Assembly (NCBI GenBank): GCA_040289115.1
Contig: PSKS01000004.1
Span: forward strand, 36,064 to 100,063
Reading direction: 5' to 3'
Source of the DNA: Chloroflexota bacterium
GTDB taxonomy: Bacteria > Chloroflexota > Dehalococcoidia > JAUQQI01
Length of the DNA: 64,000 nt
Shown: positions 4,737 to 53,623 of the stretch, in pieces
Layout of the letters: every line of letters begins with the position of its first letter
Position numbering within the stretch: the stretch's first letter is position 1
Translations under genes and position numbers: made by a program
Notes under the pieces: generated by a model
What the model saw: the letters and a program-made list of their open reading frames with translations, nothing else
The model's database searches: none
What the model was told of the DNA's origin: nothing

Positions 4737-6101
4737 CGCTGGTTTTACAAAGTTTTCGACAACCTGGGCGTTCGGGACCCCAAGACCCTGCGCATCGGGC
4801 CCCATTTGGCGACATCTTGGAGGCCGATAAGCCCAACCACCTGGGAGCTGGAGCTGCGAAAGGACGTGGTCTTCCACAACGGCGACCCCTTCACGGCCGA
4901 GACGGTCAAGTTCAACTGGGAAAGGATAACCAACCCCGAGCAGAAAAGCCCCCAGCGGGGAAACCACGAGCAGATCGCCGGGGTTGAAATCGTCGACACC
5001 CACAAGGTCCGGGTCCACACCAAATCCCCCTACCCCATCTTTGTTGAGCGGCTGCAAAACTTTCAGCTGGTCCCCGAGAAGGTCGTAAAAGCCAAGGGGG
5101 ATGCCTGGTTTGCCGAAAACCCCATTGGAACGGGGCCGTATAAGTTCGTCGAGTGGAAGCGGGACCGCTACATCCTGGTGGAACGCAACGACAACTACTG
5201 GGGACCCAAGCCCGCCTTTAGGTACTTTAAGTATGTGGTCATCCCCGAAGTTACCACCCAGATCGCCGAGCTTTTAAACGGCAACATCGACGTGATGCGG
5301 GCCGTCCCCACCGACCAGGTAAACACCATTAATAACTCCGGCCGGGCCAAGGTGGTAAGCCAACGGATCCTGCGCACGGGCTTTGTAGGCCTCGACGCCA
5401 AGGGGCGGACAGCCCCCAGCCCCTTCATGGACGTGCGTGTTCGGCACGCTGCCAACCACGCCGTAAATATCGAAAGCTATATCAAAAACCTCCAGCCTGG
5501 GGGCGACCGGGCCCCAGCCTTGGTGAACCCGATGGCCTTCGGGTACGACCCGGCCATTAAGCCCCACGAGTACGACCCCGACAAGGCCAAAGCGTTGCTG
5601 GCCCAGGCCGGCTACGCCCAGGGCTTCGAGGTAACCTTTAACCGTACCAACGCCTCCATTCTGCCCAATGCCCGGCTGGTGTTCGAGGCGATGCAGCGGG
5701 ACCTGGAGAAGGTAGGCATCCGGGTGAAGTTTCAAGTCCACGAGGACCGGGCCTTCACCGATATGGTCTCCCAGGGCAAGGGCGGCCCCATGTACGAGTG
5801 GTCCTGGGGCTACTACTCGGTGTTCGATGCCGACGGCATCCTCTGGGACATGCTCCACTCGTCGAGTCCCTTTAGCTACTACCAAAACCCGGAGCTGGAC
5901 CGGCTCTTGCTCGAGGGCCGGTCGACCCTGGATGAGGAGACCCGCAAGCAGGTCTATTCCCGGGCCCAGCAGATCATCCGGGATGAGGCCCCGGCCATCT
6001 TTATGTGGGGCTTTCACCAGCTCTGGGCGGTGAGCACGGCCGTGAACTGGATGCCCGACCCGGACGAAATCGACAAGTTCTACACGGCCAAACCGGCGTA
6101 A
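4737..6101 (+). pseudogene. ABC transporter substrate-binding protein, family 5 (peptide/nickel, DppA/OppA-like), 5'-truncated with no signal peptide
   Basis: Family-5 SBP homology begins right after an in-frame TAG at 4734-4736 (RWFYKVFDNLGVRDPKTLRIGPHLATSWRPIS, compared with DppA from memory: YNRLVEF...IPGLAEKWEVS). About 60-80 N-terminal residues including the signal peptide are missing. The first ATG (4806) would give a protein lacking a leader. Confidence 0.6.
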
Positions 6102-6124
6102 AGAGACGGGCCCGGGCCGACCCG

Positions 6125-7042
6125 ATGAGCACATACCTTGCCCGGCAGGTCATCCAGCTGGCCATTGCCGTTTGGGGCATCTCGGTCATCGTCTTTGTGG
6201 TTAACTTTGTCATCGGCGACCCGATAAACGCCCTGGTGCCCCCAGAGACTCCGGAGGAGACCCGGCAGCTCCTGCGCCACCAGTACGGGTTCGACCGGCC
6301 GATCCTGGTCCAGTACCTGGACTTTGCCCGGGGGGCGGTGGTAGGCAACTTCGGCGAGTCGTATCTTTTTAGAAAGCCGGCCCTGGATCTGGTTCTCGAG
6401 CGGCTTCCGGCGACCCTGCAGCTTACCGTGGCCGGGATGGGGGTGGCGACCTTAATCGCCATCCCGGTGGGGATCATCTCGGCCTACTGGCGCTATTCCC
6501 TTATCGACAACATCGCCACCCTCGTCGCCGTGGCCGGTCAGGCAATGCCCATCTACTGGCTGGGGCTGATGCTCATTTTGCTCTTTTCCGTGCACCTGCG
6601 CTGGCTTCCGGCCTCAGGGTACGGCACACCCCAGCACCTCATCTTACCGGCCTTCTGCTTAGGGGTCTTCACCGCCCCGGTGGCCATGCGGCTGGTTAGA
6701 TCCGGCATGCTCGACGTCCTCGCCCAGGACTACATCCGGACCGCCCGGGCCAAAGGCCTGACCGAATGGGCGGTGGTGATGCGCCACGCCCTGCGCAACA
6801 CCATGATCCCGGTGGTGACCGTGCTTGGGCTGCAGTTCGGGCAGCTTATGGGCGGGGCCGTTATTACCGAGACGGTCTTTGCCTGGCCGGGAGTTGCCCT
6901 GCTGCTTATAAACGCCATCTACCGCTCGGATATTCCGGTGATGCAGGCCGCGGTCATTATCCTGGCCCTCATCATTGCCGGGGTAAACTTCCTGGTGGAT
7001 TTGGTCGTGGCCGTCCTTGACCCGAGGATCAGGCTGAAATGA
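6125..7042 (+). CDS. ABC transporter permease, DppB/OppB family
   Basis: MSTYLARQVIQLAIAVWGISVIVF is a typical DppB N-terminus. BPD_transp_1 region present. Confidence 0.9.
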   Translation: MSTYLARQVIQLAIAVWGISVIVFVVNFVIGDPINALVPPETPEETRQLLRHQYGFDRPILVQYLDFARGAVVGNFGESYLFRKPALDLVLERLPATLQLTVAGMGVATLIAIPVGIISAYWRYSLIDNIATLVAVAGQAMPIYWLGLMLILLFSVHLRWLPASGYGTPQHLILPAFCLGVFTAPVAMRLVRSGMLDVLAQDYIRTARAKGLTEWAVVMRHALRNTMIPVVTVLGLQFGQLMGGAVITETVFAWPGVALLLINAIYRSDIPVMQAAVIILALIIAGVNFLVDLVVAVLDPRIRLK

Positions 7043-7989
7043 ACCGCCCGATATCCGATGGCGTATCCGCGGCGGCCGGCACCCTGATCCTTCCGACCCG
7101 CCGGGCGATGCCGGGCTGGCGGAAGGTGCTGCGGCGCCTCTGGCAGCTGCGGACCGCCACATTAAGCGGGGTCTTCCTGGTGGTGCTGGTGTTTGTGGCC
7201 GTTTTTGCGGATTTTATTACCCCTTACAACCCCTACGAAGGGGAGCTGGTGAACCGGCTCCGCCCACCCATCTGGGAGCACGGGGGAAGCTGGGAGCACA
7301 TCCTCGGCACCGACCAGGTGGGCCGGGATAACTTGAGCCGGCTCATCTTCGGGGCCCGGGTGTCGCTGGCGGTAGGCTTTCTAGCCACGGTAGTGGCGGC
7401 GGCCATCGGGGTGGCCCTGGGTCTGGCGGCAGGCTACATTGGGCGGCTGACAGACACCGTAATTTCGACGGTTATAAACATCCAACTTACGGTCCCGTTT
7501 ATCCTGCTGGCCCTGCTCTTTATCGGGGTAGTGGGACCCGGGCTGGTTATCGCCAACTACATCGCCGTGAACGTCATCATCGTGCTGGGGGTCGCGTCCT
7601 GGCCCATCTACGCCCGGGTGATTCGGGCCGAGGTGTTTAAGTTGCGGGAACTGGACTTCGTTACAGCGGCCCGCTGCCTGGGCTTCTCCGACGCCCGGAT
7701 CCTCCTGCGCCACATCCTGCCCAACGCGTTCAACCCCATCATCGTGCTTAGCACAGTCCAGGTCGCCCGATTTATTATCGCCGAGGCTTTCTTAAGCTTT
7801 CTGGGCCTGGGCACTCCCCCGCCAACCCCGACCTGGGGAAGCATGCTCGCCGACGCCCGGCAGTTTATGTTCGACAAGTGGTGGCTGCCTACCTTCCCGG
7901 GGCTGGCGATCTTCATCACAACCCTGGCGATTAACCTCTTCGGGGACGGCCTGCGGGACTGGCTCGACCCATATTCCCGGAATATTTAG
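7039..7989 (+). CDS. ABC transporter permease, DppC/OppC family
   Basis: Start overlaps the upstream stop (ATGA). DppC-like N-terminus and EAA-like loop. Paralogous to the partial gene at 1-696. Confidence 0.9.
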   Translation: MNRPISDGVSAAAGTLILPTRRAMPGWRKVLRRLWQLRTATLSGVFLVVLVFVAVFADFITPYNPYEGELVNRLRPPIWEHGGSWEHILGTDQVGRDNLSRLIFGARVSLAVGFLATVVAAAIGVALGLAAGYIGRLTDTVISTVINIQLTVPFILLALLFIGVVGPGLVIANYIAVNVIIVLGVASWPIYARVIRAEVFKLRELDFVTAARCLGFSDARILLRHILPNAFNPIIVLSTVQVARFIIAEAFLSFLGLGTPPPTPTWGSMLADARQFMFDKWWLPTFPGLAIFITTLAINLFGDGLRDWLDPYSRNI

Positions 7990-44491: not shown

Positions 44492-45901
44492 TCAGAGAAT
44501 ATAGCGGCTTAAGTCTTCGTTCGCCAGCAGCCCGGCCAGCCGGTTGCGCACGTACTCGGCGTCGATGAGCACCCGCTCGCCCCGCCGATCGGGGGCGCTG
44601 AAGCTTATCTCCTCCAGGACGGCCTCCATCACCGTGTAGAGGCGGCGGGCGCCGATATTCTCATACCGCTCATTGAGCCGGGCCGCCGTGCGGGCTAGCT
44701 CGATGATGGCGTCCTCGGTGAACTCCAGCTCCACCCCCTCGGTGGCCAACAGGGCCTGGTACTGCCTGACCAAGGAGTTCTCGGGCTCGACCAGGATCCG
44801 CCGGAACTCCTCCTCACCAAGGGGATGGAGCTCGACCCGCAGGGGGAATCGGCCCTGAAGCTCCGGAATCAGGTCCGACGGGCGCCGGTCGTAGAAGGCG
44901 CCGGCGGCGATGAACAGGATATGGTCGGTGCGGACCGGGCCGTAGCGGGTCAGGACGGTGCAGCCCTCAACGATGGGCAGCAGGTCCCGCTGAACCCCTT
45001 CGCCGGAAACGTCCGGCCCAACCTCCACCTCAGGGCCGGCGATCTTGTCGATCTCGTCGATAAAGACGACCCCCAACTCCTCCGCCCGGCGCAGGCCCTC
45101 TTCGATCACCTCGTCGAGGTTGATAAGCTTAGAGGCCTCCTCCCGGGTCAGGATCCGGCGGGCCTCCCGGACCGACACCCGGCGGGCCCGACGCCGCCGG
45201 CTGTAGTCCTCATACTGCTCGATGAACTCGGCGAAGGACTCCCGGAGCTCATCCACCGAGACCCCTGGGCCAAATTCCAGGTTGTACCGGTCGTAGTCGC
45301 CCACCTCGATTTCGATGATGTGGTCGTCGAGGGCCCGGGCCTTCACCAGGTCGGCAACCCGCTTGCGCACCGCCCGCATCCGGGCCTTATCCGACTTGAT
45401 CAGGTCGGGGTCGTCCAAAAGCTCCAGGGGCAGGGACTGGGCCCGCAACCGGCCCTTAGCCCGGGCTCGCTTCGGGCTGGAAATGAGCTGCTGGTAGATG
45501 TAATTTACCAGCCGTTCGTCGGCCAGGGACTCGGCCTTGGACTGCACCTCCCGGAGCCGCTCCTCGTAGACCATCCCCACGCTGACGTCGACCAGCTCGT
45601 GGATGATGGATTCGACGTCCCGACCGACGTAACCGACCTCGGTAAAGCGGGTCGCCTCGACTTTGACAAAGGGGGCCCCAATAAGTTGGGCCACCCGCCG
45701 GGCGATCTCGGTCTTCCCGACGCCAGTAGGGCCGATCATCAGAATGTTTTTGGGCAAAATGTCCCGGGCAAGCTCAGGGGGGAGCATCCGGCGGCGGTAC
45801 CGGTTGCGGAGGGCGATGGCAACTGCCCTTTTGGCCGCCTCCTGGCCGACTATGTATTTATCAAGCTGCCGGACGATCTCTTTAGGGGTCAGGGTTTTCA
45901 T
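44492..45901 (-). CDS. hslU: ATP-dependent protease ATPase subunit HslU
   Basis: [33 protein letters not shown], Walker [15 protein letters not shown]-domain, C-terminal [12 protein letters not shown]. Confidence 0.9.
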
Positions 45902-49712: not shown

Positions 49713-49800
49713 GACGATTTTTAGACACCTCTTAGCGGGTTGCTAAGAAAACGGGTGGTATAGTTTAATCGAAATTCAACGGATTGGGGCTGAGGGGAAT

Positions 49801-52404
<2,604 letters not shown>

Positions 52405-52434
52405 GCAAAGCCAGAAACCAGCCGGAGGAGACCG

Positions 52435-53556
52435 ATGGAGTTACAGCGGGACCAGGTTCACCGGATCGCCGCCTTCAGGCCCAGGCAGGGAAATGTGCTC
52501 AGCTTGGTCCTGGACATCTCGCCGCAAGAGAGCCAGAATCGGACGTACCACGTGGTCCGCAAAAGCCTCTTTGACGAGCTGCGGCGCAAGGTTCCCGAAG
52601 AAGGGCGGCGGCTTCTCGAGGCCGAGGTCGAAAAAATCGATGATTACTTCGAGCGCCACTTCACCCCCCATGGCCTCGGGATTGCCGTTTACTCGTGCAT
52701 CCCCGAGGACTTCTGGGAAGTCGTTTTCCTTCACACCCGGCCCCGGGACCAGGCCCACTACGACACGATTCCATACATTCGGCCCCTGGTGGACCTGCTC
52801 GACGAGTACGACCGGTACGCGGTGCTTCTGCTGGATAAGGCCCGGGCCAGACTCTTTTTCATCGAACTGGCAAAAATCGTCGAGGCCGACGAGTTCGCCG
52901 ACCTTATCGTCAAAAAGCATAAGCAGGGGGGCTGGTCCTCGGCCGATTTCCAGCGCCACCACGAGACCCACGTCGTCTGGCACGTTAAGCGCACCCTCGA
53001 AGAGCTTCGGGACTTCGAGGCCCGTCACCCCTTCGACCGGCTGGTGGTGGCCGGCCCGACGGAAGTCCTGAGCACCTTCGTGGACCTTTTGCCCAAAGAG
53101 CTTGAATCGAAGCTTGCGGGCACCTTCACCGCCCAGATCATTGCCCCGCCCGAGGAGATCCTTTACAAGACGCTGGAGCTGGAGCAGGCCCTCGAAAGGG
53201 ACGAGGAACTCAGTCTGGTAGAGCAGACCCTGGAACTGGCCGCCAAAGGCGGGCCGGCTGTGGTGGGCCTAGCTGACACGGTCGGGGCGGCCATGCAGAA
53301 CCGGATAATGCGCCTGCTCATAACCGAGACCTTCCGACCCGAAGGGTACGAGTGTGCCAACTGCGGCTTCATCGGCACCCGGCCCAACGGGAGCGCCTGT
53401 CCCTTGTGCGGCGGCCCCCTGGTGCACGTAAACGACCTCATTGAAAGCCTCATCCGGGCGATGCTCCGGCAGCAGGCTTGGGTGGAACTGGTTCGGGGCA
53501 AGGGGGGCGAAAGGCTCGACGCCGTGGGCGGAATCGCCGCCCTGCTGAGGTTCTGA
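52435..53556 (+). CDS. Bacterial eRF1/Pelota-like protein (baeRF1-type) with GGQ-to-GGW substitution and C-terminal Cys4 zinc ribbon
   Basis: Central segment LIVKKHKQGGWSSADFQRHHETHVVWHVKR parallels the eRF1 GGQ loop ([29 protein letters not shown], from memory). Flanking segments parallel eRF1 domain 2/3. CANCGF...CPLCGG zinc ribbon near the C-terminus. 30-nt gap after clpB with a GGAGGAG RBS. Confidence 0.6.
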   Translation: MELQRDQVHRIAAFRPRQGNVLSLVLDISPQESQNRTYHVVRKSLFDELRRKVPEEGRRLLEAEVEKIDDYFERHFTPHGLGIAVYSCIPEDFWEVVFLHTRPRDQAHYDTIPYIRPLVDLLDEYDRYAVLLLDKARARLFFIELAKIVEADEFADLIVKKHKQGGWSSADFQRHHETHVVWHVKRTLEELRDFEARHPFDRLVVAGPTEVLSTFVDLLPKELESKLAGTFTAQIIAPPEEILYKTLELEQALERDEELSLVEQTLELAAKGGPAVVGLADTVGAAMQNRIMRLLITETFRPEGYECANCGFIGTRPNGSACPLCGGPLVHVNDLIESLIRAMLRQQAWVELVRGKGGERLDAVGGIAALLRF

Positions 53557-53623
53557 ATCCGCGGGCGTGGCCTGTTTATAATTATCCGGTTCGGCTGACC
53601 AAACCCCGCATCAGGAGGAGTAG

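What the first reader, a model, noticed from the sequence alone, without database searches (positions are those of the whole stretch)
52435..53556. Bacterial eRF1/Pelota-like protein with the catalytic GGQ glutamine replaced by Trp (KQGGWS) and a C-terminal Cys4 zinc ribbon
The 373-aa product aligns by eye, segment by segment, with eukaryotic/archaeal class-I release factor domain 2. YAVLLLDKARARLFF corresponds to FGFIVIDGSGALFG, and LIVKKHKQGGWSSADFQRHHETHVVWHVKR corresponds to [29 protein letters not shown]. The glutamine of the universally conserved GGQ peptidyl-tRNA hydrolysis motif is Trp here, with a Gln shifted two positions upstream. A domain-3-like region follows (GGPAVVGLADTVGAAM...), then a CxxC...CxxC zinc ribbon. 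Bacterial eRF1 homologs are rare and poorly characterised. A GGQ-less variant would resemble Pelota/Dom34 (ribosome splitting without hydrolysis) rather than a release factor.
Basis: partly seen in the sequence, partly recalled or inferred. Interest (0 to 1): 0.85.

Follow-up and report, generated by a model that had tools for sequence, protein, structure and literature searches.

The report
Release-factor-like ribosome stress protein beside ClpB
This gene encodes a bacterial relative of the archaeal/eukaryotic release factor eRF1, from an already described family (baeRF1 family 10, which includes the mycobacterial ribosome hibernation factor Msmeg1130/Balon); it keeps the Gly-Gly loop but has Trp where the catalytic Gln should be, and it sits in a heat-shock operon with ClpB, so it is an interesting but not new kind of protein.

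Summary
ORF 52435..53556 (+) encodes a 373-aa three-domain aeRF1-like protein. Its loop KHKQGGWS aligns without gaps to eRF1 KKHGRGGQS, placing Trp167 on the catalytic Gln. The C domain carries an intact Cys4 zinc ribbon.

It is not a rare oddity or a sequencing error.
- It matches Pfam baeRF_family10 at E = 5.9e-37.
- An exhaustive profile search finds 8,322 cluster representatives.
- In the 170-sequence alignment (best 150 of those, the earlier hits, the window), GGW occurs in 82 and canonical GGQ in 1.
- The four Cys are 96-100% conserved.

GGW-type genes lie tightly next to clpB, lon, dnaJ/dnaK, hsp20 or ECF sigma genes in 19 of 29 bacterial loci. Some are fused to anti-sigma zf-HC2 domains.

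Most likely this is a heat-shock-co-expressed, codon-independent ribosomal A-site factor of the Balon type. Whether the GGW loop still hydrolyses peptidyl-tRNA is unresolved.

Verdict: new member of a known kind, moderate interest.

The parts
52435..53556 (+). Complete ORF (373 aa plus stop): baeRF1 family 10 protein
   Evidence: Pfam PF18854 127.6 bits against a cutoff of 27.1. The exact sequence is in NCBI as 'hypothetical protein C4315_02695 [Chloroflexota bacterium]'.
52424..52430 (+). Shine-Dalgarno GGAGGAG, 4 nt before the ATG
   Evidence: Read directly from the sequence.
52435..52770 (+). N-terminal domain (aa 1-112), aeRF1 N-domain-like fold. It has no NIKS motif, and the helical-hairpin tip (aa 53-54) is variable and indel-rich in the family.
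   Evidence: AF2 model secondary structure. Full-length Foldseek alignments to aRF1 and Balon. No Pfam eRF1_1 hit. Alignment A2 shows indels at this tip.
52771..53184 (+). Middle (RNase-H-like, release-factor M) domain, aa 113-250
   Evidence: Pfam baeRF_family10 covers 113-250; eRF1_2 covers 128-218 at 24.5 bits.
52915..52938 (+). GGQ-loop equivalent KHKQGGWS (aa 161-168). Trp167 (52933..52935) occupies the catalytic Gln position, and Gln164 precedes the Gly-Gly.
   Evidence: Gap-free alignment to aRF1/eRF1 GGQ. Family statistics. Low-pLDDT flexible loop between strand 147-155 and helix 169-197.
52951..52986 (+). Start of the post-loop helix, QRHHETHVVWHV (aa 173-184). It contains near-invariant Arg174 and a His ladder (H175, H179, H183) where eRF1 has Arg/Lys.
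   Evidence: Column counts: R174 161/170, H175 118/170, H179 99/170, H183 134/170. Alignment to eRF1 [13 protein letters not shown].
53206..53553 (+). C-terminal eRF1 domain 3 / Pelota-type domain (aa 258-373)
53353..53409 (+). Cys4 zinc ribbon inserted in the C domain (C307, C310, C322, C325)
   Evidence: The four columns are 96-100% Cys in 170 relatives. [quoted passage not shown]
49801..52404 (+). clpB (867 aa), directly upstream with a 30-nt gap and no + strand terminator-like site in the gap. Probable two-gene operon clpB-baeRF10.
   Evidence: Pfam Clp_N, AAA, AAA_lid_9, AAA_2, ClpB_D2-small. Gap and scan. Same arrangement in L001/L011, L003 and L012.
49731..49765 (+). Promoter-like region upstream of clpB: inverted repeat CTTAGC-N5-GCTAAG and extended -10 TGgTATAGT. 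This part is tentative.
   Evidence: Read. Conserved in close relatives only. The repeat pattern is not statistically unusual: 19 of 100 shuffles give at least 2 matches.
53561..53585 (+). Weak terminator-like hairpin plus T/A-rich tail just after the stop codon

Best explanation
The gene encodes a member of bacterial aeRF1 family 10 (baeRF_family10), the Pfam family that also holds the mycobacterial ribosome hibernation factor Msmeg1130 (Balon).

Proposed mechanism:
1. The gene is co-transcribed with clpB as part of the heat-shock/proteostasis response. Operon structure is shown; heat induction is inferred.
2. The three-domain, tRNA-shaped protein enters the ribosomal A site without reading a stop codon. 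This is inferred from the absence of NIKS and an unconserved N-domain tip.
3. Its middle domain places the conserved KHKQGGW loop and the Arg/His helix at the peptidyl-transferase centre, and translation is paused. The C domain with its zinc ribbon faces the factor-binding side, possibly contacting EF-Tu as Balon does. All of this step is inferred.
4. With Trp in place of the water-coordinating Gln, the loop most likely acts as a plug, stacking on rRNA or tRNA bases, rather than as an efficient hydrolase. This is the least certain step.
For: **Family membership**
- Pfam PF18854 E = 5.9e-37.
- Msmeg1130 (residues 10-375, transcribed) scores 124.7 bits on the same model.

**Fold**
- AF2 model pLDDT 87.
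- Best Foldseek hit is 8v9j_z, Msmeg1130 on the 70S ribosome, E = 1.6e-24.
- The family profile hits Msmeg1130 full-length at 3.5e-29.

**No stop-codon reading**
- No eRF1_1 hit and no NIKS motif.

**Loop under selection**
- GG is 80-87% conserved, the Gln position is aromatic in 118/170, R174 is 95% conserved, and the modal loop length equals that of aRF1.

**Stress linkage across phyla**
- clpB in Dehalococcoidia; dnaJ-x-clpB in Anaerolineae; lon in Dictyoglomota, Binatia and others; ECF sigma plus hsp20 in Chloroflexota; dnaJ-dnaK-sigma in L006.
- 19 of 29 bacterial loci have such a neighbour.

**Published precedent**
- Balon homologs bind the A site, lack NIKS and GGQ, and sit in stress operons with Hsp20, DnaK, DnaJ and sigma factors (PMC10901736).
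- A Synechocystis homolog is also seen on hibernating ribosomes (bioRxiv 10.64898/2026.07.03.736309).
Against: - The protein fails the curated NCBIfam hibernation-factor models: 75.5 bits against 480, 37.5 against 320, and 19.2 against 330.
- Pairwise it is as far from Msmeg1130 (14 bits) as from aRF1 (38 bits), so function transfer is across subfamilies.
- Unlike Balon and Msmeg1130 it keeps Gly-Gly, an aRF1-length loop, KKH upstream of the loop and an intact zinc ribbon. Its engagement with the peptidyl-transferase centre may therefore be aRF1-like rather than Balon-like.
- Burroughs & Aravind singled out family 10 as possibly catalytically active.
- No ribosome binding, expression or activity data exist for this subfamily.
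- No HPF/RaiA gene was seen next to it.
Confidence: 0.6

Rival explanations
1. It is an active, stop-codon-independent peptidyl-tRNA hydrolase or rescue factor. The retained Gly-Gly loop enters the peptidyl-transferase centre and hydrolysis is promoted by the backbone at position 167 and/or Gln164. Nascent chains freed from heat-stalled ribosomes are handed to ClpB, Lon or DnaK. This would be a bacterial analogue of Vms1 working with Cdc48.
For: - Gly-Gly and the aRF1 loop length are retained, and KKH-x-x-GG is shared with eRF1.
- Loop conservation is far higher than reported for inactive baeRF1 families, and Burroughs & Aravind proposed family 10 as potentially active.
- Many family members carry GGWSQ, resembling the GGxSQ motif of aVLRF-1/acVLRF-1. 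Pfam acVLRF1 scores 30.5 bits.
- From my own recall of Shaw & Green 2007 and Korostelev 2008: the Gln backbone amide, not the side chain, is the main catalytic contributor in bacterial RFs.
- Tight operons with AAA+ machines.
Against: - The catalytic Gln position is Trp. The downstream Gln of GGWSQ is absent in this protein (GGWSS) and in the lon-linked Dictyoglomota proteins, while present in the clpB-linked Anaerolineae ones. That Gln is therefore dispensable for whatever the proteostasis-linked members share.
- The closest solved homolog is a non-hydrolytic hibernation factor.
- Bulky Trp seems more likely to exclude water than to position it (inference).
Confidence: 0.2
2. It is a Pelota/Dom34-like ribosome-splitting rescue factor. 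It would bind empty A sites of stalled ribosomes and promote subunit dissociation without hydrolysis.
For: - Same superfamily and three-domain architecture, with no catalytic Gln.
Against: - Pelota model TIGR00111 scores only 17.2 bits against a cutoff of 177.65, and Pelota ranks below Balon and aRF1 in every search.
- The Pelota catalytic-loop region is poorly conserved (PMC6514570), whereas here it is strongly conserved.
- Bacteria lack the ABCE1 partner that performs the splitting (established knowledge).
Confidence: 0.08
3. It is primarily a regulator that reports ribosome or translation status to transcription, i.e. an anti-sigma-like partner of a stress sigma factor.
For: - Several family-10 proteins carry an N-terminal zf-HC2 anti-sigma domain: P0010 30.5, P0027 33.9 and P0063 27.1 bits against a cutoff of 22.2.
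- Others follow an ECF sigma gene directly: L006, L015, L017 and L018.
Against: - The window protein has no zf-HC2 extension.
- No sigma factor was identified among its annotated neighbours. These are CoA-transferase and ClpB upstream, and an MR_MLE enzyme downstream.
Confidence: 0.05

Closest known systems
Msmeg1130 (MSMEG_1130), the mycobacterial Balon-type ribosome hibernation factor (PDB 8V9J/8V9L)
   Same: - Same Pfam family: baeRF_family10, 124.7 against 127.6 bits.
- Full-length profile alignment at 3.5e-29.
- Three domains, with no NIKS and no GGQ.
   Different: - Pairwise similarity is very low: 14 bits by phmmer, and a BLASTP match only over the N-terminal 143 residues at 26% identity.
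- The Msmeg1130 loop reads ERAGQM, with no Gly-Gly and no Trp. Its C-domain insert has no cysteines.
- The NCBIfam equivalog cutoff is missed by a wide margin.
Balon of Psychrobacter urativorans (PDB 8RD8/8RDV/8RDW)
   Same: - aeRF1-like three-domain A-site protein found in stress operons.
   Different: - Only 11% identity; the profile E-value is 3e-4.
- Balon has a lasso loop around A2602, a bL27 trap and an HP motif (PMC10901736). None of these could be identified here.
- The protein here has an aRF1-type Gly-Gly loop and a zinc ribbon.
Archaeal/eukaryotic class-I release factor aRF1/eRF1
   Same: - The M and C domains align over 267 residues (4af1, E = 8e-9).
- The loop KKH-K-Q-GG-W-S matches KKH-G-R-GG-Q-S with the same length.
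- The conserved Arg after the loop is retained, and the zinc-ribbon insertion site is the same.
   Different: - The catalytic Gln is replaced by Trp.
- No NIKS motif and no eRF1_1 hit.
- TIGR03676 scores 59.6 bits against a cutoff of 234.7.
- It is bacterial and lies in a heat-shock operon.
Pelota/Dom34
   Same: - Same superfamily.
- Lacks the catalytic Gln.
   Different: - Much weaker sequence and fold match.
- The loop is conserved here and not in Pelota.
- No ABCE1 partner exists in bacteria.
Vms1/ANKZF1-like release factors (acVLRF-1, Pfam PF18859)
   Same: - The M domain scores 30.5 bits against a cutoff of 27.1.
- Many family-10 relatives have GGWSQ, resembling the GGxSQ motif.
- Genomic linkage to AAA+ ATPases parallels Vms1 and Cdc48.
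   Different: - The window protein reads GGWSS, with no Gln.
- It keeps the N and C domains that acVLRF-1 lacks.
- The family-10 match is far stronger.

Membership tests
Pfam PF18854 baeRF_family10 (bacterial aeRF-1 clade, Burroughs & Aravind 2019) | Score above the curated gathering threshold on the family HMM | tested here: met
   127.6 bits against a cutoff of 27.1, E = 5.9e-37, residues 113-250 covering profile positions 1-142 of 143.
Pfam PF18854 baeRF_family10 (bacterial aeRF-1 clade, Burroughs & Aravind 2019) | Classical three-domain aeRF1 architecture: N domain, RNase-H-like M domain and Pelota/eRF1_3 C domain | tested here: met
Pfam PF18854 baeRF_family10 (bacterial aeRF-1 clade, Burroughs & Aravind 2019) | Zinc ribbon, or its degenerate two-strand remnant, inserted in the C domain | tested here: met
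   Intact CxxC-N11-CxxC. 96-100% conserved in 170 relatives.
Pfam PF18854 baeRF_family10 (bacterial aeRF-1 clade, Burroughs & Aravind 2019) | 'Well-conserved glutamine' in the catalytic loop, noted for family 10 | tested here: inconclusive
   Gln164 (QGGW) is present. The second common Gln (GGWSQ, 82/170) is Ser here. The paper's text does not say which Gln is meant.
Balon-type ribosome hibernation factors (NCBIfam NF052288 MSMEG_1130, NF052289 Rv2629, NF052287 AOC03_06830) | Score above the curated equivalog cutoff | tested here: not met
   75.5 against 480, 37.5 against 320 and 19.2 against 330 bits.
Balon-type ribosome hibernation factors (NCBIfam NF052288 MSMEG_1130, NF052289 Rv2629, NF052287 AOC03_06830) | Absence of the NIKS and GGQ motifs | tested here: met
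   No NIKS in the sequence and GGW instead of GGQ. However, the Gly-Gly and the aRF1 loop length are retained, unlike Msmeg1130.
Balon-type ribosome hibernation factors (NCBIfam NF052288 MSMEG_1130, NF052289 Rv2629, NF052287 AOC03_06830) | Balon-specific elements: HP motif, lasso loop around A2602 and bL27 trap | not testable with these tools
   These are described only in figures of PMC10901736. No residue numbers or coordinates were available to map them.
Balon-type ribosome hibernation factors (NCBIfam NF052288 MSMEG_1130, NF052289 Rv2629, NF052287 AOC03_06830) | Fold closest to ribosome-bound Balon homologs | tested here: met
Balon-type ribosome hibernation factors (NCBIfam NF052288 MSMEG_1130, NF052289 Rv2629, NF052287 AOC03_06830) | Binds the ribosomal A site independently of mRNA, with EF-Tu(GDP) | not testable with these tools
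   This needs biochemistry or cryo-EM.
Balon-type ribosome hibernation factors (NCBIfam NF052288 MSMEG_1130, NF052289 Rv2629, NF052287 AOC03_06830) | Located in stress-response operons | tested here: met
   clpB lies 30 nt upstream. lon, dnaJ/dnaK, hsp20 or sigma genes neighbour relatives.
Class-I release factor aRF1/eRF1 (TIGR03676) | Score above the equivalog cutoff | tested here: not met
   59.6 bits against a cutoff of 234.7.
Class-I release factor aRF1/eRF1 (TIGR03676) | GGQ catalytic tripeptide | tested here: not met
   GGW at the aligned position. Canonical GGQ occurs in 1 of 170 aligned sequences.
Class-I release factor aRF1/eRF1 (TIGR03676) | Stop-codon-recognition N domain (eRF1_1, with NIKS and YxCxxxF) | tested here: not met
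   No eRF1_1 hit and no NIKS. The YxCxxxF-aligned stretch reads HYDTIPY.
Pelota/Dom34 (TIGR00111) | Score above the equivalog cutoff | tested here: not met
   17.2 bits against a cutoff of 177.65. Pelota structures rank below Balon and aRF1.
acVLRF-1 (Pfam PF18859, Vms1-like) | GGxSQ catalytic motif, and loss of the stop-codon-binding N domain (replaced by a short N-terminal extension) | tested here: not met
   The motif is GGWSS here, and the N and C domains are both present. The 30.5-bit hit lies under the much stronger family-10 hit.

The most novel reading that the evidence does not exclude
The GGQ-to-GGW change turns the release-factor loop into a water-excluding wedge. It would occupy the peptidyl-transferase centre and protect peptidyl-tRNA rather than cleave it. 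That would define a heat-shock-regulon 'translation pause' factor that works with ClpB, Lon and DnaK. In the anti-sigma-fused and sigma-adjacent relatives, it would also report ribosome status to an ECF sigma factor. This would be a direct link between ribosomal A-site occupancy and the proteostasis response. It would be mechanistically distinct from Balon (lasso loop outside the centre) and from Vms1 (cleavage).
Probability: 0.15. Interest if true: 0.7.

Novelty: new member of a known kind. Interest (0 to 1): 0.35.

Why it matters
**What is already known**
- Bacterial aeRF1 homologs were recently shown to be widespread ribosome hibernation factors.
- Only the Gly-Gly-less Balon, Msmeg1130 and Rv2629 types have solved ribosome-bound structures in the PDB copy searched here. 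A Synechocystis homolog is reported on hibernating ribosomes in a 2026 preprint; its loop type was not examined.

**What this protein represents**
- It belongs to a large, coherent subfamily: the best 150 cluster representatives returned by the profile search all score at least 276 bits.
- That subfamily keeps the ancestral release-factor loop almost intact and swaps only the catalytic Gln for an aromatic residue.
- It keeps the zinc ribbon.
- It is repeatedly placed in operons with ClpB, Lon, DnaJ/DnaK, Hsp20 and ECF sigma factors.

**Why that is useful**
- It is a natural test case for what the GGQ glutamine contributes. It also tests whether family 10 contains active hydrolases, as predicted in 2019, or plugs.
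- It asks how translation arrest is coupled to protein quality control under heat stress.

For this particular gene the result is mainly an improved annotation of a 'hypothetical protein'.

Tried and rejected
- **Word-indexed homolog search.** The single sequence gave only 7 hits. That could have suggested rarity, but the exhaustive profile search showed thousands.
- **Sequencing error or lineage-specific mutation of GGQ.** Rejected: W, F or Y fills that column in 118/170, and GGQ occurs in 1/170.
- **Genuine alternative release factor reading stop codons.** Rejected: no NIKS or eRF1_1, and TIGR03676 is far below its cutoff.
- **The downstream Gln of GGWSQ as the catalytic residue.** It is absent in this protein and in the lon-linked Dictyoglomota proteins, so it cannot explain a shared function.
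- **Heat-shock operator upstream of clpB.** There is an inverted repeat TTAGC-N5-GCTAA, but it has only one exact copy in the window and the pattern is not unusual against shuffles. Its conservation is seen only in near-identical relatives. It does not match the CIRCE, HAIR or CtsR consensus sequences as I recall them. Left as a note.
- **RNA elements.** Rfam found nothing in the whole window.
- **Published data on Gln-to-Trp in GGQ.** Shaw & Green 2007 is not held. Text searches gave only an indirect reference, a title saying that Gln substitutions do not entirely abolish eRF1 activity.
- **Greedy ORF calling in GC-rich loci.** It produced spurious antisense ORFs. It was redone seeded on the match, and only neighbours confirmed by tblastn or Pfam were counted.
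Full report
**Observation**

ORF 52435..53556 on the + strand is intact and encodes 373 residues. A strong Shine-Dalgarno sequence (GGAGGAG, 52424..52430) lies 4 nt before the ATG. Codons 52915..52938 read KHKQGGWS, with Trp167 at 52933..52935. Codons 53353..53409 read CANCGFIGTRPNGSACPLC.

- Against Halobacterium aRF1 (PDB 4af1, E = 8e-9), the stretch kkhkqGGwssadfqr aligns without gaps to gkqrkGGqsaqrfar.
- The family profile aligns to human eRF1 ...FGFIVIDGSGALFG... and ...[29 protein letters not shown]....

Trp167 therefore sits exactly on the catalytic Gln. The Gly-Gly, the upstream KKH, the downstream Ser and the conserved Arg are retained, and the loop has the aRF1 length.

**What family it is**

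Pfam results:

| Model | Score (bits) | Cutoff | Note |
|---|---|---|---|
| baeRF_family10 (PF18854) | 127.6 | 27.1 | E = 5.9e-37 |
| eRF1_3 | 25.9 | 25.8 | at threshold |
| eRF1_2 | 24.5 | 27.1 | just below |
| acVLRF1 | 30.5 | 27.1 | overlaps the family-10 hit |

There is no eRF1_1 hit, and no NIKS motif in the sequence.

NCBIfam gives only sub-threshold matches:

| Model | Score (bits) | Cutoff |
|---|---|---|
| MSMEG_1130 family hibernation factor | 75.5 | 480 |
| aRF1 | 59.6 | 234.7 |
| Rv2629 family | 37.5 | 320 |
| AOC03_06830 (Psychrobacter Balon) | 19.2 | 330 |
| Pelota | 17.2 | 177.65 |

An AlphaFold2 model built on 25 homologs is confident (mean pLDDT 87.2). It shows three domains. 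A low-confidence loop (residues 156-168) lies between a strand and a long helix, which is the topological position of the GGQ loop.

Fold searches:
- Foldseek against the PDB ranks ribosome-bound Msmeg1130 (Balon) first at 1.6e-24. Next come aRF1 (6.7e-21), Psychrobacter Balon (1.4e-17) and Pelota (about 1e-11).
- The family profile matches Msmeg1130 over its full length at 3.5e-29.
- Msmeg1130, transcribed from that alignment, is itself a baeRF_family10 member at 124.7 bits.

The relationship is nevertheless distant:

| Comparison with the window protein | phmmer bits |
|---|---|
| Msmeg1130 | 14 |
| aRF1 M+C domains | 38 |
| Zinc-ribbon/GG-aromatic relatives | 118-264 |

Msmeg1130 has ERAGQM in place of KQGGWS, and a Cys-less insert where the zinc ribbon sits.

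**Size and conservation of the family**

The word-indexed search found few relatives. An exhaustive profile search of 1.84 billion cluster representatives found 8,322 at E <= 1e-3 and 1,687 at E <= 1e-30.

A MAFFT alignment of 170 sequences was built from the best 150 representatives, the earlier hits and the window protein. The consensus loop is VPG[RK]HKQGGWSQAR[FY]QRHH. Column counts:
- The Gln-equivalent column is W in 91, F in 22 and Y in 5.
- Strict GGW occurs in 82 sequences.
- Canonical GGQ occurs in one.
- Gln164 is Q in 80.
- The position two after Trp is Q in 82, but Ser in this protein.

The most conserved columns of all are the four cysteines (96-100%), followed by G207, G278, G304, R174, A369 and R372. 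The helix after the loop carries a His ladder (H175, H179, H183) where eRF1 has Arg/Lys.

**Literature**

Burroughs & Aravind 2019 (PMC6514570) defined the baeRF-1 clade and its families. Their points relevant here:
- Many families replace the zinc ribbon by a two-strand insert.
- Most families look catalytically inactive.
- 'Family 10' has a well-conserved Gln and could be an active hydrolase.
- aVLRF-1 and acVLRF-1 carry GGxSQ, a pattern that GGWSQ resembles.

Helena-Bueno et al. 2024 (PMC10901736) reported the following:
- Balon and the mycobacterial homologs Msmeg1130 and Rv2629 bind the A site without mRNA dependence.
- They lack NIKS and GGQ.
- They recruit EF-Tu(GDP) through a C-domain beta-loop.
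- They occur in about 20% of representative bacteria.
- They lie in stress operons with Hsp20, DnaK, DnaJ and sigma factors.

A 2026 preprint reports a Synechocystis homolog on hibernating ribosomes. The claim that bacterial eRF1 homologs are rare and poorly characterised is therefore out of date.

**Genomic context**

The window comes from a Dehalococcoidia/Chloroflexota metagenome-assembled genome. Upstream, 30 nt away on the same strand, is clpB (49801..52404). The scan found no + strand terminator-like site in the gap. A weak one follows the baeRF10 stop codon. The genes further out are unrelated metabolic genes, so this looks like a two-gene operon.

In the 29 bacterial genome loci retrieved through the loop motif, tblastn and Pfam show these neighbours:

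| Neighbour | Loci and taxa |
|---|---|
| clpB -> baeRF10 | L011, L012 (Dehalococcoidia) |
| dnaJ -> baeRF10 -> clpB | L023, L024, L027, L029, L034 (Anaerolineae), gaps of about 20-30 nt |
| lon -> baeRF10 | L021, L022, L025, L026, L030, L031, L033, L035 (Dictyoglomota, Binatia and an unclassified MAG) |
| ECF-type sigma -> baeRF10 (-> hsp20) | L015, L017, L018 (L017 is labelled a Proteobacteria MAG; for L018 the sigma-like region was read by eye and not run through Pfam, and no hsp20 was seen) |
| BON/YtxH gene | L020 |

That makes 19 of 29 loci. Two metagenomic loci outside this set add to it: L005 has baeRF10 followed by lon, and L006 has dnaJ-dnaK-ECF sigma-(zf-HC2::baeRF10)-ahpC.

The remaining loci sit next to an aminotransferase, an aconitase or an S49 peptidase. 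The retrieval was biased to the GG[WF] loop, so this describes that subfamily only.

The downstream Gln of GGWSQ is present in the Anaerolineae clpB-linked proteins. It is absent from the Dehalococcoidia clpB-linked and Dictyoglomota lon-linked ones. This argues that it is not essential to the shared role. K/R-H-x-Q-G-G-W is constant across them.

**Mechanism**

*Shown:*
- family membership
- fold
- Trp at the Gln position
- a conserved Gly-Gly loop of aRF1 length
- a conserved zinc ribbon
- operon linkage to proteostasis genes

*Inferred:*
- The protein enters the A site in a codon-independent way, since no decoding motifs are present and the N-domain tip is variable.
- Its M domain reaches the peptidyl-transferase centre.
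- It is made together with ClpB under proteotoxic stress.

*Least certain:* the chemistry. Trp cannot coordinate the hydrolytic water the way Gln does. I therefore favour a Balon-like, non-hydrolytic plug that pauses or preserves ribosomes (confidence about 0.6 for a stress-linked A-site hibernation-type factor).

The retained Gly-Gly and the strong loop conservation keep an active-hydrolase reading alive at about 0.2. So does evidence that Gln substitutions do not fully abolish release (a title seen, plus my recall of Shaw & Green 2007 and Korostelev 2008). On that reading, nascent chains would be handed to AAA+ machines. Pelota-like splitting (0.08) and a purely regulatory anti-sigma-type role (0.05) are less likely for this protein.

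**Comparison, novelty and verdict**

The protein works most like Balon/Msmeg1130, and it is a member of Pfam baeRF_family10. It is not a member of the curated NCBIfam hibernation-factor equivalogs, nor of aRF1/eRF1, Pelota or acVLRF-1 as defined by their thresholds and motifs.

The GGW/zinc-ribbon subfamily has no experimental characterisation. The ClpB/Lon linkage and the anti-sigma fusions do not appear in the main text of the two key papers. The family and its possible roles have, however, been described.

Verdict: new member of a known kind, interest about 0.35. It gives a clear and testable question about what a GGW loop does in the peptidyl-transferase centre.

Noticed in passing
P0010, P0027, P0063 (also P0017, P0087, P0098, P0124); L006 5369-7377: A recurrent architecture fuses an N-terminal zf-HC2 anti-sigma domain to a full baeRF family-10 protein. 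Scores are 30.5, 33.9 and 27.1 bits against a cutoff of 22.2. In L006 the gene overlaps the stop codon of an ECF sigma gene, follows dnaJ-dnaK and precedes ahpC. This suggests a link between ribosome status and sigma-factor control.
   Followed up: partly
L015 636-3471; L017 5189-7690; L018 3947-7119: In these MAGs (two labelled Chloroflexota, one Proteobacteria), an unfused QGGWSQ-type baeRF10 gene lies directly after an ECF-like sigma gene. The Sigma70_r4_2 domain is Pfam-confirmed for L015 and L017; for L018 the sigma-like region was read by eye only. One or two hsp20 genes follow in L015 and L017.
   Followed up: partly
window 49731-49765: Upstream of clpB there is an inverted repeat CTTAGC-N5-GCTAAG overlapping a -35-like TTGCTA, followed by an extended -10 TGgTATAGT. 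It is a possible heat-shock operator/promoter, but the repeat pattern is not statistically unusual and is conserved only in near-identical relatives.
   Followed up: partly
window 52951-52986 (aa 173-184): The helix after the GGW loop has a His ladder (H175, H179, H183; conserved in 118, 99 and 134 of 170) where eRF1 has Arg/Lys. It may be an rRNA-contact, metal-binding or pH-sensitive face.
   Followed up: no
window 44492-45901 (-): A second AAA+ proteostasis-type gene (HslU-like: AAA_2, AAA and AAA_5 domains) lies about 4 kb upstream on the opposite strand. It is syntenic in L001 and L003.
   Followed up: no
L036-L039 (Actinomycetes/Gaiellales MAGs): These QGGWSQ-type members lie next to an aconitase gene and have a degenerate ribbon: the second knuckle reads CPLDG instead of CxxC. 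In L039 the gene appears split into two ORFs (6001-6711 and 6671-7156), which points to a frameshift or an assembly error.
   Followed up: no
L008, L010 (P0008, P0012): A sister subclade has a longer loop, (K/R)xGGFAGxEERR, with no Gln. It keeps the zinc ribbon but sits in a different conserved neighbourhood: mutS, NYN, PD-(D/E)XK, a faint S55-peptidase match (all Pfam labels precomputed) and a sensor-like gene.
   Followed up: no
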